From Gammaproteobacteria bacterium (GTDB taxonomy: Bacteria; Pseudomonadota; Gammaproteobacteria; S012-40): 64,000 nt of DNA. The notes under the pieces were generated by a model. It searched no databases and had not been told where the DNA came from. It worked only from the letters and a program-made list of their open reading frames with translations. Shown here piece by piece: positions 1-64,000 of the stretch; position 1 is the first letter of the stretch, and each line of letters opens with the position of its first letter. Location of the stretch: assembly GCA_027021445.1 (NCBI GenBank), contig JALUUH010000138.1, positions 8,275 through 72,274 on the forward strand, in the 5' to 3' direction. Made by a program: the position numbers and the translations under genes.

Positions 1-10
1 ACCGACATAA

Positions 11-835: not shown

Positions 836-850
836 TCGTTTTCATTCATC

Positions 851-3251: not shown

Positions 3252-3688
3252 GATCCACTCCTCTAGTAACAATATTGCGTTTGCGTGCGGAAACTCTACA
3301 ATACAAGTCATTTCCCTGTGCGGAAGACTATAATGTATCGATACAAAAATCTACTCAAATAACACCGTTAACAAGATATAATTCGCTTATATATGTGTAG
3401 AAAAGCCTAACTTCTCATCCTAACAGTAAAAAATTTCCAAGTAAGTTTCAGATAACGTATTTAACGCAACCAAAGAGAGAGTACTCAATAAAACCATACT
3501 ACGCTTTTTACGCCATACAGAATTAAGCCTAGGGCCAACAAAACTTTTATTTACTGATCTCATAATATGCATCATCGACATAAAGTTCGTGACCAAGCCT
3601 TATACAAATGAGAAAATACTTTCGGGCTTGGATTTGCTTTTTTTATGAAGAACTTTAATTATAAATTGACTAGGACATACTATTAGAT

Positions 3689-4429: not shown

Positions 4430-4430
4430 A

Positions 4431-5129: not shown

Positions 5130-5161
5130 CTTCTCCCTTTTTGCGCGTTCTTTAACACTGT

Positions 5162-5692: not shown

Positions 5693-5900
5693 AAATCAAT
5701 AAACCTATCCGTATACAACGCATGAGAATTTGCATCTGCGGCAAGCCGCAAAATCAAAGAGGAATATAACACGTGTGAATTGAATAGAGAAAAAGGAGAG
5801 AGATTTAACAATTAGAAACAATTAAGCCAAACTAAACTCACACAAAATAACCATTTGATTAAACGGGTTATTTGCTGCGTTAGCAGCTCTTAATGACACC

Positions 5901-5940
5901 GAGAACAGCCTCCTAGGAGGCTGTCTGAGAAGCCTCCTGG
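5901..5940. repeat. Solo palindromic repeat unit (CCTAGG-core hairpin), member of the window-wide repeat family
   Basis: A perfect 20-bp palindrome 'acagcctcctaggaggctgt' lies at 5905-5924. Its arms match the terminal inverted repeats of the ~170-bp elements at 24538 and 25635. Confidence 0.6.
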
Positions 5941-5949
5941 AAAATAAGG

Positions 5950-6768: not shown

Positions 6769-7071
6769 ACCAACACCCTCACACCTTAAAATTCCATGAC
6801 ATTCTGTTCATTAAAGCGCAGTTAAATATAAGATTTCGACTGCCACTTCATGAAATCTTCACAAACAAACCTATACAATTAATCATTTCTTAATTAATCG
6901 ACTGAATTAACAACGTAAAACACGGCTAAATAAGCTCAGATAATTCCTGAATAATAACCGTACAAACAACTCTATCATAGATCACTTTAAAAAACCTATT
7001 CATAAATTGTTGAATCTTTAAATACACATTCAAACCAATGTTGTTGATGCGTTATTCTACCCCTAATAGCG

Positions 7072-8550: not shown

Positions 8551-8633
8551 ATACTCTCAAAAACTATTGCACAATTCATATTGAATGTTAGAAATACTTC
8601 TAGGAATAACACATTTATTAAGCGAGCGCTCAA

Positions 8634-9005
8634 ATGAAATACACGGGGATCCTACACTCAAGTATTATCGTAAAAGACTGTACACAGTCATTGAAGTTTT
8701 ATCTTAATATATTAGAAATGCAACTCATTAATCAACGCCCGGATTTAGGCTTTCCGGGGGCGTGGATTAAAATTAATGACCTTCAGCAAATCCATTTACT
8801 CGAAGTTCCAAACCCCGACTCCATGACTACCCGACCACAACATGGTGGACGCGATCGACATATAGCGATAGGGGTCTCATCTCTCGAAAATCTAATGACA
8901 CGTCTTGAACAAGCAGGAGTAGAATACGCACTCAGTCGATCAGGAAGAAAGGCCTTATTTTGCAGAGACCCAGATGGTAATACGTTGGAGTTTATTCAGG
9001 TTTAA
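8634..9005 (+). CDS. VOC/glyoxalase-family protein, 123 aa
   Basis: The sequence 'ILHSSIIVKD...SLKFYLNILEM' through 'HIAIGV...LFCRDPDGNTLEF' matches the paired beta-alpha-beta-beta-beta VOC pattern. Confidence 0.7.
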   Translation: MKYTGILHSSIIVKDCTQSLKFYLNILEMQLINQRPDLGFPGAWIKINDLQQIHLLEVPNPDSMTTRPQHGGRDRHIAIGVSSLENLMTRLEQAGVEYALSRSGRKALFCRDPDGNTLEFIQV

Positions 9006-9035
9006 TGAAAGGTATCTACCCGTAACGATTGAAAT

Positions 9036-36666: not shown

Positions 36667-38076
36667 TTACCGCTCGTAAGCCATTTCATGCGCATAACGA
36701 CCATCAGGTATGATAGTACCTTCACGGGCTGTCATCCACATGTTGTATAACCAAATTGTGTTACCGGTAAATACCATAGTTCCACCAATCCAACGTGCAA
36801 TCATATATGGATGCTCAGCAATAACCACATCAATATATGGAACTTCGTAGATTTTACCAGCGCCTTGAATGAGTCCGGCGATAGTCATGGATATCCAGTA
36901 AATACAGAAACCTACAATTACAAACCAATAATGCAGATTTGCCAAGGCTAATGAATAGAGTTTACGGCGTAACATTGCTTGTAAACCGAAGTAAACTGCA
37001 GCAATCTCTAGGAATGTAGACATTCCTAACAACGCTAAATGCGCATGCGCAACAATCCAACCAGTACCATGTACGTACCAGTTAATAGCGCGAGTTTGCT
37101 GGAAGCCACCTTGCATATTCAATGGAATCGCAAGCAAAACACCTGTTACGGAGAATTTGATTTCTACATTCTCTACAAACAAGCTCCACTTACCTTTCAT
37201 TGTTAACAATATGTTAGCAATAAAAGCCACTGCCGGGATAAGAATCAAAACACCTTCTACTGAAGCAAAAGACTTCAACCATTCAGGCAGCGGAGCCGAC
37301 ATCAAATGATGAGAAGCGGGTGTTGAGTAGAAAGCGATGATTGACCAAAAATGCAAATGACCAATTCTATGCGAATAAAGGGGATTCCCCGTTATTTTTG
37401 GAATTGTATAATAAGCAATAGCCGCTGCAACCGGCGTGATCCATAGACCAAGCAAGTTATGTGCGTGCCAGAAAGTCAAATAAGCTTCTGTTAAACCAGT
37501 CAGGTTAAAGAGCTCGGGTGATTGACCAATAGTTACTGTGATTATGGTCAAAAATATCATCGAGCCAAAAAACCAGTTCGTGATGTATATGCCCTGGGTT
37601 TTACGATGAGCAATTGTCATCCAAACATTAATACCCAATGGAAGTAAAACACCAAAAATAACGACTAAATCGATAGGCCAAATCAAGTCACTGTATTCAC
37701 GACCTGAAGTAATCCCCATCCATAACAATAGAAGCCCTAGACTTAAACCAATGTTCCATAGAAACACATTCCATAAGCCTAATTTTTCTGACCATAACTT
37801 GGTATTACCCAGTGATGGCGTCATGTACATCATCGTCATGGCAAAAGCCATAGAAATCCAACCAAGAATTACCGCAAGCACATGCACTTGACGCATATGG
37901 CCAAACGCAAATAACTCCGTACCAGTAACCCAGTCAGGAAACGCAAGTTTTGCAGCGTTAAACGAGCCTAAACCCGTTCCTACTACAAACCAGAAAATAG
38001 ATGAATAACCAAAGAATATGGTTGCCGACCCAACCGGTATGTCCTCATTCTTTGCAAATAATAATTTTAGCAGCAT
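36667..38076 (-). CDS. C-family (cbb3-type) haem-copper oxidase catalytic subunit, CcoN-like, 469 aa
   Basis: It has 12 TM helices. By my count, H65 ('MRQVH'), H206 ('WHAHN'), Y250 with H256/H257 ('AFYSTPASHH') and H344/H346 ('VAHAH') are present. Their spacing equals that of the CcoN ligand set including the cross-link Tyr. Confidence 0.85.
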   Translation of the reverse strand: MLLKLLFAKNEDIPVGSATIFFGYSSIFWFVVGTGLGSFNAAKLAFPDWVTGTELFAFGHMRQVHVLAVILGWISMAFAMTMMYMTPSLGNTKLWSEKLGLWNVFLWNIGLSLGLLLLWMGITSGREYSDLIWPIDLVVIFGVLLPLGINVWMTIAHRKTQGIYITNWFFGSMIFLTIITVTIGQSPELFNLTGLTEAYLTFWHAHNLLGLWITPVAAAIAYYTIPKITGNPLYSHRIGHLHFWSIIAFYSTPASHHLMSAPLPEWLKSFASVEGVLILIPAVAFIANILLTMKGKWSLFVENVEIKFSVTGVLLAIPLNMQGGFQQTRAINWYVHGTGWIVAHAHLALLGMSTFLEIAAVYFGLQAMLRRKLYSLALANLHYWFVIVGFCIYWISMTIAGLIQGAGKIYEVPYIDVVIAEHPYMIARWIGGTMVFTGNTIWLYNMWMTAREGTIIPDGRYAHEMAYER

Positions 38077-38122
38077 TTAAACAGTCCTCCCAATTAATAA
38101 ACCCTGATAATCAAATACAAGA

Positions 38123-38212
38123 TCACTCTTGCATTTTATTAAAAAGGTACCAGGACAACCACATACTTGAAAAAGCAAGCAGAATCCCACAAGCGCCCGC
38201 AAATGTAGCCAT
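38123..38212 (-). CDS. Tiny TM peptide, 29 aa (not in ORF track)
   Basis: The SD TAGGAGG lies 7 nt before the ATG. The sequence is MATFAGACGILLAFSSMWLSWYLFNKMQE. It lies immediately upstream of the ccoN-like start. Confidence 0.4.
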   Translation of the reverse strand: MATFAGACGILLAFSSMWLSWYLFNKMQE

Positions 38213-38231
38213 GCCAAACCTCCTAATTTAA

Positions 38232-38522
38232 TTACCAACCAGTGTTATCGCGTTGAGACTCGATTTCACCATGTTTTTTCATTGCTAGACCAAAGATGAT
38301 CGCGAAAGCAAGCCCAAAAGCAAGCATCATGACATCTACGAAACCCGAGAAAGTTGATGGATTATAAGCTTCTCCATACCAACCGCCCCAGCTTTCATAC
38401 GGCCCTCTACCAACCGCACACATAACCGCGGCACCAAACACACTTCCATTCCCCATACCGGTAGTAAAAGCACCGATAACAAGAGCCCAGAAAGTCTTTC
38501 CTATTGTTAACTTATTTTGCAT
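38232..38522 (-). CDS. Small 3-TM membrane protein, 96 aa
   Basis: I moved the start to ATG 38522 (GGAGG upstream). The protein is Gly-rich and hydrophobic. It is the first gene of the ccoN-like operon. Confidence 0.5.
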   Translation of the reverse strand: MQNKLTIGKTFWALVIGAFTTGMGNGSVFGAAVMCAVGRGPYESWGGWYGEAYNPSTFSGFVDVMMLAFGLAFAIIFGLAMKKHGEIESQRDNTGW

Positions 38523-38797
38523 CTCCACCCTCCGAAGCAAATGATAAGACCCTATTAAAACGCAAATTCCCAAAGCAAATTATGATAATTAGTTTATGAA
38601 AACTTACACATCCCCCAAGCAAATGAGGAAACCTTGGCAGATTGACACAGCTAATGATTAACGTCAAGATAATTGTATGAAAAAACAATGGGCGACAAAA
38701 TGTTGGCAATCCCATAACAAAAAATAATACAATCATCACATTGAGAACACATAGAAACAACTATCTGTTTAATCAAAAATTAGAAAAGGCAGGAAAA

Positions 38798-39001
38798 ATG
38801 CAGAAAAGAGAAATGGCTATTTATATCTTTGTCGCCCTCAGCTCACTATTGGTAGTCTCTTACACAGTACACATGCTTATTGGAGGATTAGTTAGCGAAG
38901 AACTCGAAACACAGATAACAATTGGCGTGACCTTATTTTGGGCCTGCCTCATTATTGCAGCTGGCTTTGACATCGCCAAACGAAGAGGACTCAGAAATTG
39001 A
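38798..39001 (+). CDS. Small 2-TM protein, 67 aa (only plus-strand gene inside the island besides 28485)
   Basis: ATG 38798 follows AGGCAGGAAAA. It has two hydrophobic helices. Confidence 0.35.
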   Translation: MQKREMAIYIFVALSSLLVVSYTVHMLIGGLVSEELETQITIGVTLFWACLIIAAGFDIAKRRGLRN

Positions 39002-39105
39002 GAGACGGCAAGCTGAAAAAGCAAAATGGTATTTACGCAACACAAGAAAACATCAAGTATTTTATCACTATTTATGAATGACTAATAATGAAAAACCACA
39101 GCCGA

Positions 39106-39561
39106 TTACCTAAACACACGAAGCAAAGCCTTCGCTTCACTAAAGCTGCTTTCACTTGAAAATTGACCCTTATGAAAAACTTGCTGCTGTTTTTTTCCTT
39201 CCCCATCCAAACCGGACAAGCCTATACTTTTACCCGCAGTATCCGAAAAAAACCTCACATCCTTCACCATATCGATTGCTTCGCCGTTGCGCAACTCCAA
39301 ACGCACCGACTTATGTGACACATCCAAAGCTATAGCCGATGACGGCAATATCATTAACCGAGTTTTGGCAATGCGATTAAATGCGATCAAGAAAATCATA
39401 GTCGTCATAAACACTAATAGATAAGTAATGTTTTGCTCTCCATTAAACCAAAATTGCGCGGCAATTGAGACCAACGCTACCAGTGTTGGAATATATAGCA
39501 GCAAATCCCACTTCACGCCCTTTTTATCTTGCACAAACTCAAATCTAGAACTTTTTGACAT
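39106..39561 (-). CDS. Membrane protein (2 TM + soluble C-terminal domain), 151 aa
   Basis: It is an ORF packed 4 nt after the upstream gene. I recognised no motif. Confidence 0.45.
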   Translation of the reverse strand: MSKSSRFEFVQDKKGVKWDLLLYIPTLVALVSIAAQFWFNGEQNITYLLVFMTTMIFLIAFNRIAKTRLMILPSSAIALDVSHKSVRLELRNGEAIDMVKDVRFFSDTAGKSIGLSGLDGEGKKQQQVFHKGQFSSESSFSEAKALLRVFR

Positions 39562-39565
39562 ATAC

Positions 39566-40072
39566 CTAACCTTTCTGCTCTGCCAGTATCCGGCCTAATA
39601 CACCATCCAACTCACCATAAAGTAGGCGACCAGGCCGACGAAACACAACTGTACCAGAAGTATCAATAATAAATGTCCACGGATCACCCTTAACCCGATA
39701 GGAAATAAACGCCTCTGGATTCATATATTGATCCATATGCAGAAAAATAACATCTTTTCCATACTTATCAATAATGGCTTTTAACATTTGGAGCTGCTTA
39801 TCACACACCGTACAATGACCAGGCGTAGCAAACTCAATAACAACCGCCTTGTTCAACGCAAGAGCATCATCAACTGAATACTGATACATTCGCGCATCAG
39901 GATGACGATAACTCGTCAACCTACTTAAGTCCCCGCCCACATCATCAATGAATTTGGTTCGCAGACTCGGCGCCTCCATTCCCAAACCCAATTTGCCCGC
40001 AGGATCTTCCATTCCACAGCCAACCAGAAGACTAAACACACCTAATAACAAAGAAAACTTAACGAGCCTCAT
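39566..40072 (-). CDS. TlpA-like thioredoxin-fold lipoprotein (redoxin family), 168 aa
   Basis: I moved the start to ATG 40072. A lipobox is present ('SLLVGCG'). 'VVIEFATPGHCTVCDKQL' has the CxxC in the thioredoxin position. Confidence 0.65.
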   Translation of the reverse strand: MRLVKFSLLLGVFSLLVGCGMEDPAGKLGLGMEAPSLRTKFIDDVGGDLSRLTSYRHPDARMYQYSVDDALALNKAVVIEFATPGHCTVCDKQLQMLKAIIDKYGKDVIFLHMDQYMNPEAFISYRVKGDPWTFIIDTSGTVVFRRPGRLLYGELDGVLGRILAEQKG

Positions 40073-40589
40073 AAGCTTTTTCCCAATTAGAGCAGGTCTT
40101 ATATAAATTATACGCCCAGACAAAATTTGCTAATAAAACCAAGGTACCAAATATGCCCATGATAGCCAATAAAGGCTTCACTATAACCTCTACTTCCTGA
40201 GGCGTAGACATCACACTGGCCATACCACCCATTGTTCCAGCCATAACAAAAAACACCACCATACCGATGACACCCACGTTATGAACCCAAAAATGCACCT
40301 TAACTAAAGCCAAGCTGTAAATTGGCCTCTTGACCAGTCGCGGAACAATATAATAGATAGCTGCAAATATTGCCATTTCGACCCACCCAAGTAAATTTAT
40401 ATGAGTGTGGCCACGCACTATTAAATCACCATGAAGACGATGATCGACGAAATAGCGAAACTCAGCTATTCCTCCCATTAAAGCACCCCATGAAAAACCG
40501 ATAATACTGTATATGATACATGCATATACAAACCACAAAGTATACTTTCGATACTCAATATCATTCTCATGAATCCACGGCAAAGACAT
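40059..40589 (-). CDS. Stand-alone membrane protein homologous to CcoN helices ~IX-XII, 176 aa
   Basis: 'RGHTHINLLGWVEMAIFAAIYYIVPRLVKRPIYSLALVKVHFW' aligns with 'VAHAHLALLGMSTFLEIAAVYFGLQAMLRRKLYSLALANLHYW' of ORF 36667-38076. ATG 40589 is the likely start. Confidence 0.6.
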   Translation of the reverse strand: MSLPWIHENDIEYRKYTLWFVYACIIYSIIGFSWGALMGGIAEFRYFVDHRLHGDLIVRGHTHINLLGWVEMAIFAAIYYIVPRLVKRPIYSLALVKVHFWVHNVGVIGMVVFFVMAGTMGGMASVMSTPQEVEVIVKPLLAIMGIFGTLVLLANFVWAYNLYKTCSNWEKAYEAR

Positions 40590-40612
40590 TTGCAACAACC
40601 CTTCTATTTTAA

Positions 40613-41209
40613 TTATTTATCTTCCAACAAAACATCTGCCTCTGTAGGCGTCTTTTCTCTAATATCTGTATATTTATCACCCCATTCTTTAGGAGCCCAC
40701 ATTTCCACCATATTATCAATAAAAGCCGACTTTTCGGGCGGCGGCACTTTAGCAACAGAAGAACCAGGATCCGCCTTGAGCTCAGATAAAAATACCACAA
40801 TAGCATGCCGATCTTCAGCACTCATTTCACTGGCATAAGCTGCTTCTTTTGGGCGCAAACCATGGTCTAAAGTAATCCCGCCCTCATACACCGATTCCGG
40901 ATGCAAAAGAAATTGAGCCAGCCATTCTTTTGAACGTTTGGAACCAATCCCATCCAGAGACAGGCCCATACTGGTGCCAGTTCTTAATGCTCGATGACAG
41001 GAATTGCAACGTGCTTCACGGTATATTTTAGAACCCTGACTCCCTAATGGCGAAAAATCAAAATGCGTTGTCTGAGCAAACAAAGGCTCTTCAGAATTCA
41101 GTCTCACCGTTTCCAATCCAACGTATGCAATTAACGCCAACAAGAAAAAAACCCCAAATACTATAAATAAAATTTTCTCACCCGACTTTAAAGATTGTTT
41201 TTTTTTCAT
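40613..41209 (-). CDS. Membrane-anchored monohaem cytochrome c with CcoO-like haem domain, 198 aa
   Basis: It has a TM anchor and a single CNSCH. 'GLSLDGIGSKRSKEWLAQFLLHP' parallels CcoO. The start at ATG 41209 is preferred over the TTG at 41248. Confidence 0.65.
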   Translation of the reverse strand: MKKKQSLKSGEKILFIVFGVFFLLALIAYVGLETVRLNSEEPLFAQTTHFDFSPLGSQGSKIYREARCNSCHRALRTGTSMGLSLDGIGSKRSKEWLAQFLLHPESVYEGGITLDHGLRPKEAAYASEMSAEDRHAIVVFLSELKADPGSSVAKVPPPEKSAFIDNMVEMWAPKEWGDKYTDIREKTPTEADVLLEDK

Positions 41210-41410
41210 TATGTAACCGCACCAAATTAATTTAAAAAGCAATGGCAAAGAACTGCGAGCATATAGACTTGCTAATAAATGACTAGTTCACCCTTGCAAA
41301 ATATAAATATTGAAAGCAAAACATGTACGCTCGCCAAATCTAACAAAAAACCTCTAGAGAAAAAATCAATTTCGCAAATTATATTTCAATAAAACCCTAC
41401 TTTATTAAAA

Positions 41411-41450
41411 ACAAAAAAAAAGCGGGCTAAATGCCCGCTTTTCTTTTTTG
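41411..41450 (-). terminator. Rho-independent (bidirectional-looking) terminator after the cytochrome c4 gene
   Basis: The sequence is A8-agcgggc-taaat-gcccgct-T-rich. Confidence 0.8.
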
Positions 41451-41458
41451 CTTTTTAA

Positions 41459-42220
41459 CTAGTAGCCTCTTTCATAGGGCTGCATGATATTGCCCAATGA
41501 ATACGCAGATGCATTCGTTAAGTACGCCGCCGCATTATTAATATCTTCATCAGTCATGTTTTTAGCAACTTTTTGCATTTGACTTTGCGGATCATTTGTT
41601 CTTGACCCATCACGCCATTTTTTCAATTGATTGACTAAATATACATACTTTTGAAGTCCAATTTGCGGATAAATTGGTGGCGCACCACGCCCATTATAGC
41701 CATGACAAGCTCTACAAGAAGGCACGGGCTTAGCTCGATTGCCCTGACCATACTCAACTAAAGTCTTACCTTTGTGAGTCAAACCAACTTCAACACCCTG
41801 CTCTTTCAGGGCATTTAAATCAGATCCTTTGTACTCATCAGCCTTACCCGTTGTTAGGGTTGACAAATAGAAAGAAACGTCATTTCGATCCTGCGCCGAT
41901 AACCCCTTCGCATTATCATTCATAACAAACATAGTAGTGTCCAAACGCTTGTCAGTTGCATAATCTTCTAACTGCTTACGCAGAAAAACCCAAAACTGAC
42001 CCGCGATACGAGGCGTTCCTAATGCGTCATCACCTGTGCCATCTTGACCATGACACGATGAACACGCAGGAACTGAACCCTTACCGTTCTCATATATACT
42101 CTTACCATTCGCAACATCACCACTACCCTTTGGGTATTGCGGCGAAGACATTACTAATGAAGGTACTACTGCCCCTACTACGAAAGCGGCGACAGAAATA
42201 GCGGTGACTAACCGTTTCAT
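41459..42220 (-). CDS. Dihaem cytochrome c4-type protein, 253 aa
   Basis: It has a signal peptide and two CxxCH motifs (CSSCH, CRACH). Each is followed by a 'G...P.I.GQ' and Met-loop pattern ('LKKWRDGSRTND...MQKVA'). Confidence 0.8.
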   Translation of the reverse strand: MKRLVTAISVAAFVVGAVVPSLVMSSPQYPKGSGDVANGKSIYENGKGSVPACSSCHGQDGTGDDALGTPRIAGQFWVFLRKQLEDYATDKRLDTTMFVMNDNAKGLSAQDRNDVSFYLSTLTTGKADEYKGSDLNALKEQGVEVGLTHKGKTLVEYGQGNRAKPVPSCRACHGYNGRGAPPIYPQIGLQKYVYLVNQLKKWRDGSRTNDPQSQMQKVAKNMTDEDINNAAAYLTNASAYSLGNIMQPYERGY

Positions 42221-42715: not shown

Positions 42716-44212
42716 ATGAACACAAATAAAATACCTGAACAAGTCTACGCACTAGGATTACTTATAGTATGGGGCGGAGCACTACTCACTTTTGGCGTAC
42801 TGAGACTAGACGCCTACGGATTAGACGAAAACGCAGCTCGCGGACTGCTTTTAAACTGGTCCATATCTGATCAAATCATAAGCCCCGTATTGGTTTTAGG
42901 GGTGCCAGATTTTCGCGCACTGCTTTTTGCACCCATCGGTATTTATTGGTCAGGGAGTATTTTAGCAGCCAAAATATTTAGCTTAATTATTAGCTTCATA
43001 GCCATATACTTACTCTATAAATGGTGTGAAAAACAAGGCCGCCAAGAAGCAGGATTAGTTGCTGGCGCGCTACTTTTAATCTCACCCACCTTCATAAGTC
43101 AAATCGACACTATGGGCGCCGCGCCTTATTTACTTCTCGGGTTTGGACTTGGCGCATGGCTTGATAACGCATATCGCTCTCGCAACAAGGATTTCGGGGG
43201 GTGGTATTTTCTGCAGCTACTTTGGATAGCCATTCTTGTTACCCTACACCCTATTGGACTTGCCTACCCTATCGCACTCGCAATTTGGTGGAAAACAAAC
43301 CCTGACAAGGTAAAAAACAGTAGACATATATATGTCGGCATCCTGATCTCAGCCTTGCTTGCTACTGCAATTAAAATGGGCTGGCAAGACCTCAGCTGGT
43401 TTGCAAACCCCATTGAACAACTAGCGCTTGCACTGCAAGGCAAAACAATCTGGAGCACCGAAGATATATTCTGGTTTCCTGGGTTTATCGCAACCGTATT
43501 ACTTATAATCATCGTATTAATTGATTATAAAATCTTAACTAAAGACCTACTTGGAATCATGCTAATCGTTGCATTATTTCTAGGCTTATTTGTAGCAGAT
43601 AGCGTTTGGGCAACCATCGCAATCACAATAATCATCTTTCGCGGCCTTACAATATTGATTGATTTTCAACAATCAAAAACAAGATCCTCTTTCATTGGAC
43701 AACGCGGCCTGTTCATCATCATTGCCTTTTTAATTTCAACTTTTTTCATGTTTGAAGCCAAAACACATGCTCTTACCATAAAATACGAAATACTCAGTCC
43801 TGAAGATGAACTCATACATGCTCTCGCGGAAATCGCCAAAGATGAAAACAAACCTTTTCGCGCAGCCAGTCAATGGCCTGGGCGAACTGTTATAGCAACC
43901 AAGCGCGACGTTCTACCCCTGCCGCCTGGATTCGAGAGCCCAGAAGCTTTCTGGGAAAATGCGGGTAAAAATTTAACCCATATTATTTTTAACCCTAAAG
44001 CCCCTGAAAACCAAGAATTAACTGCCAACTTGGCAAACCTTGTCGGCAAAACAAATACCTTAGCCCTAATAAAAGGTGGTGCGCTAATAAAACTCATTGA
44101 TCACGAAGTAAAACTCTTTATCCGCCCTGATGAAGAAATCATAGAAGAAAAAACAGCGAGCACAAATCAACAATCTAACACCGAAGAAACAAGCAACCCA
44201 TCATTGAAATAA
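42716..44212 (+). CDS. Polytopic membrane protein, possibly GT-C-fold (ArnT/PMT-like) glycosyltransferase, 498 aa
   Basis: It has about 11 TM helices followed by a soluble C-terminal domain. An acidic 'LDAYGLDENAARG' motif sits in the first extracytoplasmic loop, as in GT-C enzymes. The assignment is inference only. Confidence 0.45.
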   Translation: MNTNKIPEQVYALGLLIVWGGALLTFGVLRLDAYGLDENAARGLLLNWSISDQIISPVLVLGVPDFRALLFAPIGIYWSGSILAAKIFSLIISFIAIYLLYKWCEKQGRQEAGLVAGALLLISPTFISQIDTMGAAPYLLLGFGLGAWLDNAYRSRNKDFGGWYFLQLLWIAILVTLHPIGLAYPIALAIWWKTNPDKVKNSRHIYVGILISALLATAIKMGWQDLSWFANPIEQLALALQGKTIWSTEDIFWFPGFIATVLLIIIVLIDYKILTKDLLGIMLIVALFLGLFVADSVWATIAITIIIFRGLTILIDFQQSKTRSSFIGQRGLFIIIAFLISTFFMFEAKTHALTIKYEILSPEDELIHALAEIAKDENKPFRAASQWPGRTVIATKRDVLPLPPGFESPEAFWENAGKNLTHIIFNPKAPENQELTANLANLVGKTNTLALIKGGALIKLIDHEVKLFIRPDEEIIEEKTASTNQQSNTEETSNPSLK

Positions 44213-44445: not shown

Positions 44446-45444
44446 ATGAACCGCGCATACCGGACGTTTGTTCTGTGGCTAATCTGGGGATCTGCCGCAA
44501 CAACCATTTATTTAGGACTCTATCTAGACACCGACATACTTACCTTTTTTCGTCAAGATGAAAGCAAAATCACATGGATTATCATGTTTTTATTTTTACT
44601 TGGCGTTGCTGCGAGCTTTTTCCTCACTGTCGCACTCACCAAGGAGAGTATCGAGGCTGAACTACAAGATCAATTAGCCAGCGACCAAGGAATAGCGGGG
44701 GTCAAACCCTCTGGTCGTAGAAAAAAAGCCGTCAACCGCTTTTATGATTCACTCAAAGTGGTTGCCCTATCCAATGAAAAGCCAAATATTGATGCTTTAC
44801 TCGAAGTAGAGTTCTCTTCATATTCTCGCATGAGCCATGGCATAGAAATACTAGGCAACCTACTCATTACACTGGGACTTATTGGCACCGTAATGGGGTT
44901 AACGCTGACACTTACCGGGCTTACCACATCACTTGATGCTCTTGGACACGACCAAGACATGCTTTTATCTGGGCTCCGTAAAGCAATGGGCGGCATGGGT
45001 ACCGCATTTTATACCACGCTCCTCGGCGCCGTACTGGGCGGCGTCTTGCTTCGAATTTTTGCATTAATCACTGAAAATGGCGTCGCATTTCTATTAGAAA
45101 TAGTCGCCAAAACCTGCATGATTCATTGCTCCGCCGATTTTAAACAAACCGTAGAACGCGACATTCGCTTCCTCAATGTGGAAGTAGAGGCATTAGGCAA
45201 TCGAGTCAAAAGTTTAAAAGGGGCGTTTGATGACTCCAAGCAATCCGTCAACGAATTTCATGACAGCATTAAAAAATTATACGAACTCGGCGGCAGTGAT
45301 GACGGAGTCTACACATTACGTGAAACCTTGCAGATGCAAAAATATTATCGCGCACTACTTCGCCAGGAACTCCAACTAATGAACCAATTGAACCGCTCTT
45401 GGTGGACCAGATTCAAAGAATATTTAACCGGTCGCGGAAAATAA
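44446..45444 (+). CDS. MotA-like ion-channel protein (MotA/TolQ/ExbB family) with ~110-aa C-terminal helical tail, 332 aa
   Basis: The topology is 2 TM, a loop, then 2 TM. Family motifs are 'ILGNLLITLGLIGTVMGL' and 'GMGTAFYTTLLGAVLGGVLL'. The tail 'RDIRFLNVEVEALGNRVKSLKGAFDDSKQSVNEFHDSIKKLYEL...' is coiled-coil-like. Confidence 0.7.
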   Translation: MNRAYRTFVLWLIWGSAATTIYLGLYLDTDILTFFRQDESKITWIIMFLFLLGVAASFFLTVALTKESIEAELQDQLASDQGIAGVKPSGRRKKAVNRFYDSLKVVALSNEKPNIDALLEVEFSSYSRMSHGIEILGNLLITLGLIGTVMGLTLTLTGLTTSLDALGHDQDMLLSGLRKAMGGMGTAFYTTLLGAVLGGVLLRIFALITENGVAFLLEIVAKTCMIHCSADFKQTVERDIRFLNVEVEALGNRVKSLKGAFDDSKQSVNEFHDSIKKLYELGGSDDGVYTLRETLQMQKYYRALLRQELQLMNQLNRSWWTRFKEYLTGRGK

Positions 45445-45447
45445 AAA

Positions 45448-46233
45448 GTGAATCATGACATGAAACGCCGGCGCTTTAAAAGCACGAACATCTACGAAAG
45501 TTTTTCAGATGTATCCCTGTTGATGCTCGCAACCTTTATTTTTTTAATGGTAACTATCCTCATCACTTCGAGAATGGCACAAGAATATGAAGTACCTAAA
45601 CTCAAAGCGGAAATCGAGACTCTGAAAAATAAACTTGCGGCCTCGGAACTCGATAAGCAATCGTTTAGCAGCGCGCTAGAAGAAATGGTAGTGGCAGGAG
45701 AAGGGAGCGCAAGCGCACTTGATAAAGTGGTAGAAACCGCCACCTTTGGACGCAAAGACTTTGATTTATTTATCAAAGGACTAAAGGATTTACCGGGCTC
45801 TGATTTACACCTTATCATCGATGCATCAGGATCAATGCACGGACTGACCACATTTCTAATCCCTATACTGAGAGCTGTCGTTATTCGCTCCAATAAACAA
45901 CTTGCAGCTATTACTTGGTTCTCAGATGGGATGGCAGAAACATATACCGGAAGCCTTGGAGAAATGTTTGATAAATTAATGTCAGGCGCCCCATTCGGAG
46001 GTAATCGAGAAACCATCGGCAAAGCTTTACGCGTTGCCGCACGCAATGCCCATGCACCCGGCGCTTACATACTGGTGGGCGACGAACCTTCTGACGACAT
46101 TATTAATTATTCCGATATTCCAAGCCCCGTTTTTACCCTTCCTCTCGGTCGCTCTGACCCAGAAACCAATCAAGAATACAAAAAAATTGCCGAAAAAACC
46201 GGCGGACAAATGCTACACCTAGATTTTAAATAA
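45448..46233 (+). CDS. MotB/TolR-like N-terminal TM (conserved Asp) - coiled coil - von Willebrand A domain protein, 261 aa
   Basis: 'KRRRFK...YESFSDVSLLMLATFIFLMV' resembles the MotB/ExbD/TolR TM with its Asp. 'LKAEIETLKNKLAASELDKQ' is coiled-coil-like. The vWA MIDAS motif is 'IIDASGSMHG', with 'ILVGDEPSDD' downstream. Its GTG start at 45448 begins only 3 nt after the upstream stop (an in-frame ATG follows at 45460). Confidence 0.7.
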   Translation: MNHDMKRRRFKSTNIYESFSDVSLLMLATFIFLMVTILITSRMAQEYEVPKLKAEIETLKNKLAASELDKQSFSSALEEMVVAGEGSASALDKVVETATFGRKDFDLFIKGLKDLPGSDLHLIIDASGSMHGLTTFLIPILRAVVIRSNKQLAAITWFSDGMAETYTGSLGEMFDKLMSGAPFGGNRETIGKALRVAARNAHAPGAYILVGDEPSDDIINYSDIPSPVFTLPLGRSDPETNQEYKKIAEKTGGQMLHLDFK

Positions 46234-46393: not shown

Positions 46394-46783
46394 ATGATCA
46401 CTATTCCTGTTGATACAAGGATAATAGGTGAAATTAAAAGCAAAGGCCCCATTTGCATTGAAGGCCATGTTTCAGGGAAAGGCGAAATAAACGGCTATTT
46501 ACTGCTGGGCACGAGCTGCTTATGGCAAGGCGATGTTGTGGCTGAATCGATTTTTATAGAAGGAAGAATCGAAGGTAATATAATTGCAAAAAAACAGATC
46601 AGTATAGCCTCTGGGGCAGTAATCAATGGCGATATATTCTGCCCAAACATTTTAATAGTGAGCGGCGCAGTTATAAACGGCCAACTTAATATGAAAAAAC
46701 CAGAAGCACCTATCCAATTTATAGGGCAATCCTCTCAGACTACCAAGCATACAGAGCAAGATAAACAAAAAGCCATCGCATAA
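46394..46783 (+). CDS. Bactofilin (polymer-forming cytoskeletal protein), 129 aa
   Basis: The repetitive beta-helix pattern reads 'IEGHVSGKGEINGYLLLG...IFIEGRIEGNIIAKKQISIASGAVINGDIFCPNILIVSGAVINGQLNM'. Confidence 0.8.
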   Translation: MITIPVDTRIIGEIKSKGPICIEGHVSGKGEINGYLLLGTSCLWQGDVVAESIFIEGRIEGNIIAKKQISIASGAVINGDIFCPNILIVSGAVINGQLNMKKPEAPIQFIGQSSQTTKHTEQDKQKAIA

Positions 46784-46886: not shown

Positions 46887-48827
46887 TTATTTCGACAACA
46901 AGAGAACTTCAGCCGTTTTTGTACCACCTTCTAAGCATACTCGTTTTTTCTGTAGCAAAGCCCCATTTTCATCTATTAAATCACCGATCTTCACATCGTC
47001 CTTGACAGTGTACGGAAAACGGGCAAATCGTCCGATACTACGCAGCCTCTGCTTTGATATATTGCCAACCCACACTCTCTCAGCGTCTTCATTTTCTAGT
47101 TTAGCAACCGGCCAAAGCCTAATAATATACCGTTCTTCATCAAGCAATAATTTTTTCGTTAACTGTAGCGACTCGAATTTACCCGCGTAAATTTTGGGCA
47201 ATGGCGCGAGTTCACTCATTTTTGTCGTCGCTGAAAACCATCGTAAAAAGCTAGAAAAAGTAAAATTAACCGACTCCTCCCAATTCGTTAATTGCAATAC
47301 TTGTCTAATCTCATCAGCGCTAGCAGCCCATTGAAACGTAATCGGGAAGTGATTCTGGCGCTTGTCGTTATACACATCACACCATCCTCCATTCCACCAT
47401 TGCTCTAATTTTACAGTTTTCAAATTAGAACGTTCACTAGACCGATATTCATCCTGTAAAAATCCGGAAATTATTCCCACACTAAACACCATAACCAAGC
47501 CCAGACTAGCAAGGCCTAAATATGTACGACTTGGTAAATTATAAGCGTGCCGACGATAAGACAAGCCCATAATAACAATCATAAAAAATGAAAACGATAA
47601 ACCAAACACCCACGTTGAAAAGGAAACATCACCATAATACAGCGCCGAAAAACTAATGATAAAAACCAATACACTGGCAATAGAATAAAATAGCCTGCGC
47701 ACAGATTTACTAAATTCTCCTCCGATCAAAGCAGATAAGACACCGAGCAAAGTGCTCACAAGCAATACATGCATTAGCTTCACAGCCAAAAAATACTCAG
47801 CGGCTAAAAACATCAATACACTGGCAATAGATGCAAAAAGCAAATACCAAAATGCCTGCATTAATTTAAAACCGACAAATGAAATTAATGCCATGAGAAA
47901 TACAACCCCAAGAAAAACAGGATTACCTAGCTGATAAAACACACTAAAAAAATAATCTAACCACGGGAAATGAATGGCACTAAAAAACTGCGATACATAC
48001 GAGTTAATAGAAACAATCAAGGGTGTGCGATGGAAAATAATTTGTGATAAAAGAACACTAAATGACATCAGCAGCACGGCAAACCAAAAAAACAGCGCAC
48101 CTTGTGGCTTTTTTTCGGAATCAACGAGATTCACCACAATCATTTTCATCACTGGGCGTGTGCGCCCCCAACGAATTAGCCGCAAAACCCATCCATCCAA
48201 TTTCGAACCCAGCAACTTAGATAGCTTCTTGACTAACCACAATATTGCCACCAGCAAAACAATAATAACAACGAATAAAATCCCGAGTCTCGTCGCTATC
48301 TCCGAGGCCAACCCTAATGAAGCACCAAACGCAACACCCGGTAACAGATACGCAGGCGCCCAGCCTGCCGCCGAAACAACATTGTACAGAAAAAACTTTT
48401 CGGGCCGCATTTGCATCATGCCTGCAATAGTAGGAACAACCGCACGTAAAGGCCCCACAAACCGCCCCAGAACAACGCTCTTTCCACCATGGCGCGCAAA
48501 AAATACTTTGCCATTTTCTAATAAATGCTTTCGATTTTTAAACGGCCATAAATTCGGGACTAAATCTTTGAAGTAATAACCAATCCAAAAACTAATAGCA
48601 TCACCCACTACCGCACCTAAAAAAGCCCAAAGCAAGGTCTCCCACAACCCGAGAAAACCCGTCCCTATCAGCGCACCAAAACTCAACATAATGAATGCGC
48701 CGGGCACTAACATGCCAATTACCAGCAAAGATTCCGCCATAGCAACGATAAACACCATTACACCGGCCCATGCAGGGTTGGCTTGTAACCAGTTAAAAAA
48801 AGGTTGTAAGTCGGTTAAAAAATCCAT
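46887..48827 (-). CDS. DedA/VTT-domain membrane protein fused to extra TM region and LssY_C-like C-terminal domain, 646 aa
   Basis: The N-terminal DedA pattern is 'VFIVAMAESLLVIGMLVPG...GRFVGPLRAVVPTIAGM'. About 8 more TM helices follow. The soluble C-terminus is 'WWNGGW...PITFQWAASADEI'. Confidence 0.6.
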   Translation of the reverse strand: MDFLTDLQPFFNWLQANPAWAGVMVFIVAMAESLLVIGMLVPGAFIMLSFGALIGTGFLGLWETLLWAFLGAVVGDAISFWIGYYFKDLVPNLWPFKNRKHLLENGKVFFARHGGKSVVLGRFVGPLRAVVPTIAGMMQMRPEKFFLYNVVSAAGWAPAYLLPGVAFGASLGLASEIATRLGILFVVIIVLLVAILWLVKKLSKLLGSKLDGWVLRLIRWGRTRPVMKMIVVNLVDSEKKPQGALFFWFAVLLMSFSVLLSQIIFHRTPLIVSINSYVSQFFSAIHFPWLDYFFSVFYQLGNPVFLGVVFLMALISFVGFKLMQAFWYLLFASIASVLMFLAAEYFLAVKLMHVLLVSTLLGVLSALIGGEFSKSVRRLFYSIASVLVFIISFSALYYGDVSFSTWVFGLSFSFFMIVIMGLSYRRHAYNLPSRTYLGLASLGLVMVFSVGIISGFLQDEYRSSERSNLKTVKLEQWWNGGWCDVYNDKRQNHFPITFQWAASADEIRQVLQLTNWEESVNFTFSSFLRWFSATTKMSELAPLPKIYAGKFESLQLTKKLLLDEERYIIRLWPVAKLENEDAERVWVGNISKQRLRSIGRFARFPYTVKDDVKIGDLIDENGALLQKKRVCLEGGTKTAEVLLLSK

Positions 48828-63469: not shown

Positions 63470-64000
63470 ATGCCCATAACCGCAGATTTTTTAGACTTAA
63501 TGGCGCGTGGTGGCCCCGTTATGTGGGTGATATTCGTCGTCGCTTGGGTTGCGATTATCATGCTCATAGAACGTGCATTAAGAGTCAATAGCTGGCATCG
63601 GCAGGCGCTAAAAGATCAACAAGCACTTGAAGACGATAAAACACATCTGCCTGAAAAATCGAGCACGCAAAATACCAGCCCGATTGCACTATTAATCTCA
63701 CGCCTAGAATGGCAAGAAATTAAACACAACGATGATTTAGCCCAACAACTCAACATCCAACTCGCTGAGCTAATGCCAAAACTGGAAGGCACCTTGCCGA
63801 CCATCGCTATTATTGGCTCTCTACTCCCCATGCTTGGACTTTTAGGCACCGTCACAGGCATGATTGAAGTCTTTGAGGTTATCGCCTTACAAGGAACCGG
63901 CGAACCACAAGAAATGGCGCATGGTATTTCGCAAGCACTGCTCACAACCGCAAGCGGACTCATCATCGCGATTCCCGTTATCTTTTTTCATCACCTACTG
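63470..64000 (+). CDS. ExbB/TolQ-family proton channel protein (3'-truncated by window end)
   Basis: The ATG follows AAAGGA. Supporting motifs are '[27 protein letters not shown]' and '[19 protein letters not shown]'. The frame is open to position 64000. Confidence 0.8.

What the first reader, a model, noticed from the sequence alone, without database searches (positions are those of the whole stretch)
44446..46233. MotA-like channel with helical tail + MotB/TolR-like TM-Asp/coiled-coil/vWA protein: candidate undescribed ion-driven two-component machine
The two ORFs are separated by only 3 nt. The first has MotA topology (2 TM, loop, 2 TM) and both MotA_ExbB signature helices. It ends in a ~110-aa heptad-like cytoplasmic tail, a much shorter version of the tail that distinguishes ZorA from flagellar MotA. 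The second starts with a basic cytoplasmic stub and a TM helix carrying an Asp ('FSDVSLLMLATFIF'), which is the hallmark of the MotB/ExbD/TolR 'B' subunits of 5:2 rotary motors. Where MotB has an OmpA-like peptidoglycan-binding domain and ExbD/TolR have their periplasmic fold, this protein has a coiled coil followed by a vWA domain with an intact DxSxS MIDAS ('DASGS'). A proton- or sodium-driven stator whose output is a metal-dependent adhesion domain is not one of the characterised families I know (MotAB, PomAB, ExbBD, TolQR, AglRQS, GldLM, ZorAB). The window also encodes two ordinary family members (11-835 and 63470-64000), so this is an extra, specialised paralogue. The neighbours are a GT-C-like membrane protein upstream and a bactofilin downstream.
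Basis: partly seen in the sequence, partly recalled or inferred. Interest (0 to 1): 0.78.

Follow-up and report, generated by a model that had tools for sequence, protein, structure and literature searches.

The report
Ion-motor gene pair with vWA head
Two tightly linked genes appear to encode a small membrane motor driven by ion flow whose central 'axle' protein ends in a metal-dependent binding (vWA) domain in the periplasm; this design was predicted by computer in 2025 but its function is unknown, and this is a distinct, strongly conserved version found in uncultured Gammaproteobacteria.

Summary
ORF A (44446-45444) passes Pfam's MotA_ExbB cut-off, and its model matches only A subunits of 5:2 motors (ExbB best). 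ORF B (45448/45460-46233) has a basic stub and a TM helix whose Asp is kept in 80/80 genomes. A long helix follows, then a compact vWA fold with D-x-S/T-G-S-M kept in 80/80. A sits directly upstream of B in 78/78 assessable loci. No third gene is conserved and no second B-like gene occurs.

The claim 'undescribed' does not hold. Mol Biol Evol 2025 (PMC12204202) already reported, in silico only, TM-Asp 'transpore-helix' vWA proteins tightly paired with tolQ-like genes and lacking tolR/exbD. B is homologous (hhalign 98.4%) to a wider TM-Asp/coiled-coil/vWA family, also paired with MotA-like genes, that fits that description.

This family still differs from that description. It has a single B, a minimal vWA that fails Pfam cut-offs, and an A with a conserved ~124-aa helical tail. 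It is a stand-alone two-gene operon among housekeeping genes, as conserved as hemL, absent from plasmids and essentially from viral contigs. It is not Zorya and not a flagellar stator.

Verdict: a new variant of a computationally known but uncharacterised kind. Most likely an A5B2 ion-driven motor with a periplasmic vWA head. Interest 0.5.

The parts
44446..45444 (+). Gene A: MotA/ExbB/TolQ-superfamily subunit, 332 aa, the presumed pentameric ion-conducting ring
   Evidence: PF01618 at 28 bits against a cut-off of 22.9. The AF2 model (pLDDT 76) matches ExbB, ZorA, TolQ, PomA and MotA chains. 597 homologues.
44851..44925 (+). A TM3 (residues 136-160), 'GNLLITLGLIGTVMGL', with invariant Thr148
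   Evidence: Mean column identity 0.90; invariant columns listed. It aligns with 'GLLGTV' of the window's ExbB and 'GMIGTL' of its MotA.
44926..44997 (+). A loop between TM3 and TM4 (residues 161-184), inferred periplasmic, unusually conserved
   Evidence: Mean column identity 0.79, with invariant L163, L166, G167, D169, G176 and L177. The location follows from the topology (inference).
44998..45069 (+). A TM4 (residues 185-208), 'GTAFYTTLLGAVLGG', with conserved Thr190 and invariant Thr191
   Evidence: Mean column identity 0.95. It aligns with 'LTTASG' of ExbB and 'ITTLYG' of MotA in the same window.
45070..45441 (+). A C-terminal tail (residues 209-332): the TM4 extension plus two long helices (236-281 and 291-328) ending in the conserved 'LNRSWW'; inferred cytoplasmic
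   Evidence: AF2 secondary structure; sequence. Invariant E246, L250, F271, L291, Q298, Y301, L304, E308, N316 and W319. No such tail in the 199-261-aa partners of sister TPH-vWA genes; the 278-aa L081 partner extends ~47 aa past the aligned core.
45448..46233 (+). Gene B: TM-Asp / long helix / vWA protein, the presumed dimeric 'axle'. 261 aa from the GTG at 45448; more likely 257 aa from the ATG at 45460.
   Evidence: ORF; junction sequence; database gene calls of 257 aa; 564 homologues.
45493..45570 (+). B transpore helix 'YESFSDVSLLMLATFIFLMVTILITS' with Asp21 (codon 45508-45510)
   Evidence: Translation. D21 is invariant in 23/23 sequences and 80/80 loci. The 'YESFSD' motif is shared with the sister family. 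Sub-threshold ExbD hits in 6/23 members and MotB_plug hits in 4/23.
45571..45693 (+). B post-TM conserved segment ('SRxAQEYEVPKLK', beginning at S41 in the preceding part) and long helix with heptad-like spacing (residues 42-82), inferred periplasmic stalk
   Evidence: AF2 gives one continuous helix over residues 14-82. Conserved L52, L59 and L63. Only weak coiled-coil and FtsL-type matches. Coiled-coil dimerisation was not tested.
45799..46230 (+). B C-terminal minimal vWA-fold domain (residues 118-261), with the MIDAS-like D125-A-S-G-S129 (45820-45834) and 'GDEPSD' (residues 211-216)
   Evidence: pLDDT mostly above 90. Foldseek against the PDB gives VWF A2, CMG2/ANTXR2, NorD and TFIIH p34/p44 at probability 1.0 and TM about 0.55 on the target. 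Motifs kept in 80/80 and 79/80 loci. hhalign to a Pfam-positive vWA sister family gives 98.4%.

Best explanation
A and B form a self-contained, ion-driven 5:2-type membrane motor of the MotAB/ExbBD/TolQR kind.

Five A subunits would form the ring, with the conserved Thr of TM3 and TM4 lining the pore. Two copies of the single B would insert their Asp21-bearing helices into that pore. Protonation and deprotonation of the Asp (or Na+ binding) would then drive rotation of the ring relative to the B dimer.

B's N-terminal stub would be cytoplasmic. Its long helix would form a periplasmic stalk of roughly 6 nm or more. This stalk carries a minimal vWA head whose MIDAS-like site binds a still unknown acidic ligand in the periplasm or cell wall. 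The head thus takes the place of MotB's peptidoglycan-binding domain, or of TonB/TolA's C-terminal domain, as the anchor or force-applying end.

A's conserved cytoplasmic tail is a second, lineage-specific interface on the inside of the membrane.

The pair belongs to the 'tolQ-like + transpore-helix vWA' class predicted in silico in 2025. Within that class it is a distinct subfamily.

What is shown: family membership of A, the vWA fold of B, the invariant Asp and MIDAS motif, strict pairing, the absence of any other B-type gene, and housekeeping-like conservation.

What is inferred: the 5:2 stoichiometry, rotation, topology, the ligand, and the biological role, which is probably an envelope-related housekeeping task.
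For: A subunit:
- PF01618 above the gathering score.
- Nearly all of the top 40 Foldseek hits, and all confident ones, are A subunits of solved 5:2 motors.
- TM3 and TM4 show 0.90 and 0.95 column identity.
- The Thr positions align with the window's own ExbB and MotA.

B subunit:
- The Asp is kept in 80/80 loci.
- The 'YESFSD' helix is shared with a sister family at hhalign 98.4%, E 8e-15.
- Sub-threshold ExbD and MotB_plug hits, and weak matches to ZorB-type N-termini in the PDB.
- vWA fold and MIDAS-like motif.

Pairing:
- 78/78 assessable loci have A immediately upstream on the same strand.
- There is exactly one B-like or TPH-bearing gene per locus.
- The same pairing occurs in distant lineages and in the nearest outgroup.

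Extracytoplasmic head:
- Five Lys/Arg lie in the stub before the TM helix.
- Distant relatives of the head domain are secreted LysM-vWA proteins.

Prior in-silico 5:2 models of the class: PMC12204202.

Housekeeping character:
- In genomes L002-L007, B is 72-78% and A 65-71% identical to the window's proteins, against hemL at 66-80%.
- The neighbours vary and are biosynthetic genes.
- No plasmid hits.
Against: - No multimer model could be built here, so insertion of the B helices into an A pentamer is untested for this family.
- The vWA and ExbD/MotB_plug profile hits of B are all below the curated cut-offs.
- A's first helix (residues 6-27) is only moderately hydrophobic, so the protein may have 3 or 4 TM helices.
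- No partner or ligand gene is conserved nearby, so the output is unknown.
- The published class is described as occurring mostly as heterologous vWA pairs, which is not the case here.
- There are no experimental data for any member.
Confidence: 0.65

Rival explanations
1. A Zorya-like anti-phage defence module. The motor would sense envelope perturbation through B and signal through A's cytoplasmic tail to effectors.
For: PADLOC ZorA models are the best defence-library hits for A (E 1.8e-7). ZorA chains appear among the fold matches. A has a helical cytoplasmic tail. Weak N-terminal similarity of B to ZorB-type chains 8qyd_F and 8vvi_A (E about 0.3).
Against: - The ZorA hits cover only the shared TM core. 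The NCBIfam ZorA score is 17.6 against a cut-off of 500.
- B has no PADLOC hit and no peptidoglycan-binding domain.
- No ZorC/D/E-type or any other effector gene is conserved nearby.
- The neighbours are housekeeping genes.
- Conservation is as high as for hemL, and the pair is found in 193 loci of one gammaproteobacterial group.
- Absent from plasmids and essentially from viral contigs.
- The tail is about 124 aa, far shorter than the ZorA profiles matched here (383-1063 positions).
Confidence: 0.04
2. A specialised motility stator. It would be a MotAB/AglRQS-like unit whose vWA head couples to a flagellar, gliding or pilus apparatus, by analogy with the vWA adhesin CglB in Myxococcus gliding.
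For: The organism has a flagellar-type MotA. vWA domains act in bacterial gliding adhesion (PMC9946355). One sister locus lies next to a Chp/FimL chemosensory cluster.
Against: - A's fold is closest to ExbB/TolQ, not MotA/PomA.
- Its TM2-TM3 loop is only about 70 residues, which is inferred to be too small for MotA's torque-generating domain.
- No motility gene is conserved beside the pair in any of the five or so neighbourhood types.
- A is equally distant from the window's MotA and ExbB.
Confidence: 0.08
3. Not a rotary motor. B would be a membrane-anchored periplasmic vWA protein, Bat/YfbK-like or a metal or ligand sensor. A would merely act as a channel, chaperone or regulator for it, with the TM Asp serving assembly rather than ion coupling.
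For: TM-anchored vWA proteins without motor function are common (general knowledge of Bat-type proteins). The distant head-domain relatives P0261 and P0268-P0273 have no Asp-bearing TM helix, and the one whose locus was examined (P0261) has no MotA-like neighbour. No stoichiometry or rotation has been demonstrated.
Against: - The Asp is invariant in both divergent families.
- The pore Thr positions in A are conserved.
- A and B are paired across lineages that share only 30-40% identity.
- These are exactly the features under selection in proven 5:2 motors.
Confidence: 0.18

Closest known systems
tolQ-like + 'TPH-vWA' putative force transducers (Mol Biol Evol 2025, msaf138; PMC12204202, Fig. 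4c-d; seed from Idiomarina loihiensis)
   Same: - A MotA/TolQ-type gene is tightly linked to a vWA protein with an N-terminal transpore helix carrying the conserved Asp.
- There is no tolR/exbD/motB gene nearby.
- The vWA domain is predicted to be periplasmic.
- Function is unknown and there are no experiments.
   Different: - There is a single B gene per locus (80/80), not the 'heterologous pairs' reported as predominant.
- A carries a conserved helical tail of about 124 aa and probably a fourth, N-terminal TM helix.
- The vWA head is minimal (about 140 aa) and fails Pfam cut-offs.
- The family is narrow: one full-length 50%-identity cluster among 1.84 billion representatives.
- A direct sequence comparison with the Idiomarina seed was not possible with these tools.
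P0275-type TM-Asp / coiled-coil / vWA proteins with MotA_ExbB-like partners (Planctomycetota, Nitrosomonas and others; found here)
   Same: Homologous over the TPH, stalk and vWA core (hhalign 98.4%). Shares the 'YESFSD' helix. Lies immediately downstream of a divergent MotA_ExbB gene scoring 27-29 bits.
   Different: - These proteins are 305-318 aa with a full-size, Pfam-positive vWA domain.
- Their A partners are 199-278 aa and lack the long tail.
- They sit in longer same-strand clusters, including a PG_binding_1 protein and single-TM helical proteins.
- One locus is inside a conjugative element.
ExbBD / TolQR (Ton and Tol-Pal motors)
   Same: ExbB is the best fold match for A (ExbB chains 5sv0, 5sv1, 9ddo; TM about 0.55 on the target). 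The conserved Thr in the two pore helices and the Asp in the partner's single TM helix are shared. Gene order is A then B.
   Different: B has no ExbD/TolR periplasmic fold. There is no TonB/TolA-type third subunit. A has an extra N-terminal helix and a long C-terminal tail. The sequence relationship is remote (hhalign E about 1e-4 over the TM core only).
MotAB / PomAB flagellar stator
   Same: A 4-helix layout (2 TM, loop, 2 TM) is plausible. B has a cytoplasmic basic stub, an Asp-bearing TM helix and a conserved segment just after the TM helix, in the position of the MotB plug. There are sub-threshold MotB_plug hits.
   Different: There is no OmpA-like peptidoglycan-binding domain. The cytoplasmic loop is short, with no torque-generating domain (inferred). 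There is no flagellar gene context. TIGR03818 MotA scores 16.8 against a cut-off of 303.8.
ZorAB (Zorya anti-phage defence)
   Same: A MotA-like subunit with a helical cytoplasmic tail. ZorA chains are among the fold hits, and PADLOC ZorA models hit the TM core.
   Different: The tail is several-fold shorter. B has a vWA head rather than a peptidoglycan-binding domain. There are no effector genes. The context is housekeeping and inheritance looks vertical.

Membership tests
MotA/ExbB/TolQ superfamily (PF01618) | Profile match above Pfam's gathering score | tested here: met
   28.0 bits against 22.9, residues 118-206. The precomputed PF01618 hit is present on nearly all of the 120 listed homologues.
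MotA/ExbB/TolQ superfamily (PF01618) | Fold of a 5:2-motor A subunit | tested here: met
   The AF2 model has pLDDT 76. Foldseek against the PDB returns ExbB, ZorA, TolQ, PomA and MotA chains at probability about 1.0, with TM up to 0.56 on the target.
MotA/ExbB/TolQ superfamily (PF01618) | Conserved polar (Thr) positions in the two pore-lining helices | tested here: met
   T148, T186 and T191 are invariant and T190 nearly so. They align with 'GTV' and 'TT' of the window's ExbB and MotA. That these positions line the pore comes from knowledge of the ExbB/TolQ/MotA structures.
MotB/ExbD/TolR-type B subunit | Single N-terminal TM helix with a conserved Asp, encoded directly after the A gene | tested here: met
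   D21 is kept in 80/80 loci. B lies immediately downstream of A in 78/78 assessable loci.
MotB/ExbD/TolR-type B subunit | Profile match to PF02472 ExbD or PF13677 MotB_plug above threshold | tested here: not met
   Only sub-threshold hits: ExbD in 6/23 members (best E 1.5e-3) and MotB_plug in 4/23 (best 4.3e-4). The window protein itself has none.
MotB/ExbD/TolR-type B subunit | Periplasmic OmpA-like peptidoglycan-binding domain (MotB) or ExbD/TolR fold | tested here: not met
   The C-terminal domain has a vWA fold instead.
vWA domain (PF00092 / PF13519) | Profile match above the gathering score | tested here: not met
   PF00092 at 13.3 bits against 23.8; VWA_CoxE at 12.1 against 26.4. Among 23 family members the best vWA-type hit is VWA_CoxE at E 8e-4.
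vWA domain (PF00092 / PF13519) | vWA (Rossmann-like alpha/beta) fold | tested here: met
   The Foldseek top hits are VWF A2, CMG2/ANTXR2, NorD, TFIIH p34/p44, the Pactolus I-domain and Ro, at probability 0.96-1.0. The domain pLDDT is mostly above 90.
vWA domain (PF00092 / PF13519) | MIDAS DxSxS motif plus downstream Thr and Asp ligands | tested here: inconclusive
   D-x-S/T-G-S is kept in 80/80 loci. Candidate downstream ligands T165 and D212 are invariant. Their 3-D clustering and metal binding could not be checked.
vWA domain (PF00092 / PF13519) | Homology to proteins that do match vWA profiles | tested here: met
   hhalign of A1 against A2 gives 98.4%, E 8e-15. In A2, 13/15 members hit VWA_2, down to E 3e-10.
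tolQ-like + TPH-vWA class (PMC12204202) | vWA protein with an Asp-bearing transpore helix, tightly co-occurring with a tolQ-like gene | tested here: met
   class description.
tolQ-like + TPH-vWA class (PMC12204202) | No tolR/exbD/motB-type gene in the neighbourhood | tested here: met
   A profile of B's N-terminus finds exactly one hit per locus within about 6 kb either side. None of the recurrent neighbour clusters is ExbD-like.
tolQ-like + TPH-vWA class (PMC12204202) | TPH-vWA genes in heterologous pairs (stated as predominant, not universal) | tested here: not met
   There is one B-like gene per locus in 80/80.
tolQ-like + TPH-vWA class (PMC12204202) | Sequence homology to the Idiomarina loihiensis seed proteins | not testable with these tools
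Zorya (ZorAB plus effectors) | ZorA family profile above cut-off, with a long tail | tested here: not met
   NF033917 scores 17.6 against 500 and NF033915 scores 15.9 against 100. The PADLOC hits cover only the TM core.
Zorya (ZorAB plus effectors) | ZorB with a peptidoglycan-binding domain, and adjacent ZorC/D/E-type genes | tested here: not met
   B has no PADLOC hit. No third gene is conserved.
Flagellar stator MotAB/PomAB | MotA equivalog profile and flagellar gene context | tested here: not met
   TIGR03818 scores 16.8 against 303.8. The neighbours are cytochromes, hemE, gltD, mpl and similar genes.

The most novel reading that the evidence does not exclude
The pair is a housekeeping, two-way 5:2 transducer. 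Binding of a periplasmic or cell-wall ligand by the MIDAS site of the B-dimer vWA heads would anchor the axle and un-gate ion flow, as peptidoglycan binding does for MotB. The A pentamer would then rotate and turn its conserved cytoplasmic tail bundle, doing work on or signalling to a cytoplasmic partner. This would be a non-defence counterpart of Zorya, and a functional branch of 5:2 motors with both a periplasmic metal-dependent clutch and a cytoplasmic output.
Probability: 0.2. Interest if true: 0.8.

Novelty: new variant of a known kind. Interest (0 to 1): 0.5.

Why it matters
5:2 ion-driven rotary motors (MotAB, ExbBD, TolQR, GldLM, ZorAB) are a small set of machines that carry energy from the inner membrane to other compartments. 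Each new output domain has revealed a new biological process.

A B subunit ending in a vWA/MIDAS head was proposed only in 2025, and only from models. Nothing is known about its ligand or role.

This family offers a minimal and unusually well conserved example that should suit structural work. It has two genes, a single B, a compact head, and a conserved cytoplasmic tail on A. It evolves as slowly as core biosynthetic enzymes, which argues that it does something important for these uncultured Gammaproteobacteria.

Solving its structure and finding its ligand would show whether vWA-tipped axles pull, anchor or sense.

Tried and rejected
- Direct Pfam/NCBIfam assignment of B as vWA or ExbD/MotB. 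All hits were below threshold. I used fold search and a profile-profile comparison instead.
- PDB sequence profile search with B. It gave only noise plus weak N-terminal matches to ZorB-type chains.
- A conserved third gene. Clustering of 905 ORFs from 80 loci found none; the neighbourhoods fall into about five unrelated housekeeping types.
- Bactofilin as a partner. It is adjacent only in the six closest genomes, which cannot be told apart from shared ancestry.
- The 498-aa membrane protein as GT-C. There was no Pfam, NCBIfam or PDB-profile support. Its adjacency on either side of AB, in 19 loci that share the same cytochrome neighbourhood, is only weak evidence of a link.
- The defence hypothesis. 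PADLOC hits were limited to A's TM core, plasmids gave nothing, and viral contigs gave only two 57-residue matches at 32% identity.
- Retrieving the Idiomarina seed sequences from the paper's supplements. They are not held as text.
- Further literature. No other paper describes MotA/ExbB-vWA pairs.
- A 5:2 multimer prediction. No tool for this was available.
Full report
**1. The observation**

The two ORFs are present as described. A is at 44446-45444 (+, 332 aa). B is at 45448-46233 (+, 261 aa from a GTG start). The junction reads TAA-aaa-GTG-aat-cat-gac-ATG. Database gene calls and homologues give 257 aa starting 'MKRRRF'. B therefore most likely starts at 45460, 15 nt after A's stop codon rather than 3. 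No terminator-like site on the + strand separates or follows the genes.

A passes Pfam's own cut-off for MotA_ExbB (28.0 against 22.9 bits, residues 118-206). B has no Pfam or NCBIfam hit above threshold; PF00092 VWA scores 13.3 bits against 23.8.

- ORF 11-835 is a MotA/PomA-type protein (76 bits), but it is on the minus strand.
- ORF 63470-64000 is an ExbB/TolQ-type protein (91 bits).
- The downstream ORF 46394-46783 is a bactofilin (E 7.7e-20).
- The upstream 498-aa membrane protein has no detectable family, so 'GT-C-like' is unverified.

**2. Anatomy of B**

I aligned 23 homologues that are 58-77% identical to the window protein. Invariant features:
- the TM Asp (D21 in 'ESFSD');
- D125, G128 and S129 of 'DASGS', with position 127 always S or T;
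- 'GDEP' at residues 211-214, plus D217.

Across all 80 species-level genome loci, the Asp is present in 80/80, D-x-[ST]-G-S-M in 80/80, and GDEP..D in 79/80.

The AlphaFold2 model has mean pLDDT 82, and mostly above 90 in the C-terminal domain. It shows one continuous helix over residues 14-82 (the TM helix plus a stalk), two short helices, and a compact alpha/beta domain over residues 119-250.

Foldseek against the PDB returns vWA domains at probability 0.96-1.0, with TM about 0.55 on the target. These are VWF A2, CMG2/ANTXR2, NorD, TFIIH p34/p44, the Pactolus I-domain and Ro. The vWA assignment is therefore confirmed at fold level.

The stalk has conserved hydrophobic residues with 3-4 spacing (L52, I56, L59, L63 ... 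F73, L77, M80; read), with a break in the middle. I did not test coiled-coil dimerisation.

The segment right after the TM helix, 'SRxAQEYEVPKLK', is strongly conserved. It sits where MotB has its plug. That comparison is an inference.

The five Lys/Arg in the N-terminal stub fit an N-in, C-out orientation. In addition, distant relatives of the head domain are LysM-vWA proteins, some with apparent signal peptides; their LysM hits are at about Pfam's cut-off. Both points place the head outside the cytoplasm.

**3. Anatomy of A**

I aligned 24 homologues that are 48-77% identical to the window protein. TM3 ('GNLLITLGLIGTV') and TM4 ('GMGTAFYTTLLG') are almost invariant, with column identity 0.90 and 0.95. 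The loop of about 25 residues between them is also unusually conserved (0.79).

Residues 209-332 form a tail. It consists of the TM4 extension plus two helices (236-281 and 291-328), with invariant positions throughout and a conserved 'LNRSWW' end.

The AF2 model (pLDDT 76) matches, among confident hits, only A subunits of solved 5:2 motors. ExbB is best (TM about 0.55 on the target), followed by ZorA, TolQ, PomA and MotA.

Profile comparisons with the window's own ExbB and MotA are equally weak (E 8e-5 and 5e-5). They cover only TM3 and TM4, but they align the 'GT(V/L)' and 'TT' positions. A is therefore a separate deep branch of the superfamily, not a recent paralogue of either.

The first helix (residues 6-27) is only moderately hydrophobic, so A may have 3 or 4 TM helices. 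Either way the tail is predicted to be cytoplasmic.

**4. Distribution and context**

B has 564 word-indexed homologues and A has 597. The named ones are almost all from MAGs labelled Gammaproteobacteria.

In the one-genome-per-species collection, 193 stretches encode a relative. Nearly all of the best 80 are uncultured Gammaproteobacteria labelled Ectothiorhodospiraceae, Chromatiales, Chromatiaceae, Thiotrichaceae or Ca. Tenderia.

An exhaustive profile search of 1.84 billion 50%-identity representatives found only 34 hits, with a single full-length representative. The family is narrow and tightly conserved.

A lies immediately upstream of B on the same strand in 78/80 loci. In the other two, B is 44-64 nt from the contig end. 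No locus has a second B-like or TPH-bearing gene.

Clustering of all neighbouring ORFs found no third conserved gene. The pair sits in about five different neighbourhoods, next to cytochromes c, gltBD-hemE, mpl, a fructosamine-kinase-like gene and others.

In genomes L002-L007, B is 72-78% and A 65-71% identical to the window's proteins. This compares with 66-80% for hemL and 65-70% for thiD, but only 28-47% for the DedA-family neighbour and 36-40% for the bactofilin.

The family has no plasmid hits. In IMG/VR there are only two partial matches, 32% identity over 57 residues. This is the signature of a vertically inherited housekeeping module, not of a defence island.

**5. Wider relatives**

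The exhaustive search also picked up fragments (P0267, P0270) with the same layout but a divergent sequence. P0270 (Planctomycetota) overlaps by 4 nt the end of a MotA_ExbB-like gene.

A search seeded with P0270 found 69 proteins, mostly of about 305-318 aa, named from Planctomycetota and Nitrosomonas among others. Their N-terminus is 'SFYESFSDLIFATMAIFVLLM', and they have invariant D and S-M positions in the motif. Thirteen of 15 hit VWA_2, down to E 3e-10.

hhalign of the two families gives 98.4% probability (E 8e-15) over 186 columns spanning the TM helix, the stalk and the vWA core.

Their loci again show a short MotA_ExbB-like gene (199-278 aa, 27-29 bits) directly upstream. In these cases further same-strand genes follow. 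One locus is inside a conjugative element and one is beside a Chp/FimL cluster.

The nearest outgroup of B (P0245, E 1e-55) is paired with a tail-less 250-aa A. A second pair follows in tandem. Its A is 469 aa with a long tail, and its TM-Asp/coiled-coil partner has a different C-terminal domain.

The architecture is therefore modular: a MotA-like ring with or without a tail, and an Asp helix plus stalk with a variable head.

**6. What is already known**

[quoted passage not shown] According to the paper, these proteins:
- have no tolR/exbD nearby;
- are modelled by AF3 inside a TolQ-like pentamer with the Asp facing the Thr ring;
- occur mainly in Proteobacteria and Verrucomicrobia;
- are 'predominantly found in heterologous pairs';
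- have unknown function.

I found no other description, and a 2026 Ton/Tol motor review does not mention them.

The present pair meets every class-level feature except the heterologous pairing. I could not test sequence identity with the Idiomarina seed, because the sequences are not in the held supplements.

**7. Mechanism**

The best-supported reading is an A5B2 ion-driven motor:
- The Asp21 helices of a B homodimer sit in the Thr-lined pore of an A pentamer.
- Ion passage drives relative rotation.
- B's stalk presents two vWA/MIDAS heads in the periplasm. These bind an acidic ligand and so anchor the axle, or pull on a target.
- A's conserved tail provides a cytoplasmic interface specific to this family.

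The following are shown here: family and fold membership, motif invariance, strict pairing, single-copy B, and housekeeping-type conservation. The following are inferred: stoichiometry, rotation, topology, ligand and role. I put this reading at 0.65.

The rivals are:
- a non-rotary anchored vWA protein with an accessory channel (0.18);
- a motility stator variant (0.08);
- a Zorya-like defence module (0.04).

The remainder is unassigned.

**8. Verdict**

This is a new variant of a kind that is known only computationally and remains uncharacterised.

Interest is moderate (0.5). It is a clean, minimal and highly conserved representative of a motor class with no known function, with a distinctive tailed A subunit. 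But the central idea has been published, and nothing here reveals the biological role.

Noticed in passing
window 42716-44212 (+): A 498-aa multi-TM protein with a C-terminal soluble domain and no Pfam, NCBIfam or PDB-profile match. It has many invariant residues, including D37-E38 in what appears to be the first loop. It is adjacent to the AB pair in about 19 of 80 genomes: upstream of A in the window's clade and directly downstream of B in another clade. In both cases it sits within the same cytochrome-c neighbourhood. This may indicate a functional link or only a local rearrangement.
   Followed up: partly
window 46394-46783 (+): A bactofilin (PF04519, E 7.7e-20) lies 160 nt downstream of B. 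The adjacency is conserved only in the six closest genomes, so it gives no evidence of belonging to the system.
   Followed up: partly
window 46887-48827 (-): A 646-aa fusion of a DedA/VTT domain (N-terminal) with an LssY_C domain (C-terminal) and many TM helices in between. It is poorly conserved among relatives (28-68% identity).
   Followed up: no
window 11-835 (-) and 851-2431 (-): A flagellar-type MotA/PomA (76 bits) at the window edge. Its motB partner would lie outside the window. Immediately upstream on the same strand is a 526-aa protein with Sel1 repeats and a SPOR domain.
   Followed up: partly
window 36667-42220 (-): A run of minus-strand genes. It includes two c-type cytochromes with CxxCH motifs (40613-41248 and 41459-42220) and heme-copper-oxidase-like membrane proteins (36667-38076 and 40059-40598). 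The cytochromes and the 40059-40598 protein are conserved next to the AB pair in about 18 loci. These genes were not annotated with profiles here.
   Followed up: no
L088 (Logan SRR22216446 contig), 491-4635: Two MotA-like/partner pairs in tandem. The first is a 250-aa tail-less A plus the vWA-headed P0245. The second is a 469-aa long-tailed A plus a 260-aa TM-Asp/coiled-coil protein whose C-terminal domain lacks a DxSGS motif and does not look vWA-like (not tested). This suggests a wider, modular radiation of such motors.
   Followed up: partly
L085 (ENA ERZ650164 contig), 1-10948: A sister-family MotA-like + TPH-vWA cluster sits inside a conjugative element (TrwC relaxase and a T4SS coupling protein). 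In L084 the equivalent cluster follows a Chp/FimL chemosensory operon and is followed by a PG_binding_1 protein.
   Followed up: no
P0268, P0269, P0271, P0273: Extracytoplasmic-looking 300-335-aa proteins are the most distant detectable relatives of B's head domain. Three combine a LysM domain (hits at about Pfam's cut-off) with the vWA-like domain; P0273 has only a sub-threshold VWA_2 hit. They hint that this vWA subfamily works at the cell wall.
   Followed up: partly
L086 and L087 (IMG/VR contigs of 188-207 kb), 5001-5183: Two jumbo-phage-sized viral contigs encode a short stretch (57 residues, 32% identity) that resembles the start of B's vWA domain. This is probably just a generic vWA protein.
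   Followed up: no
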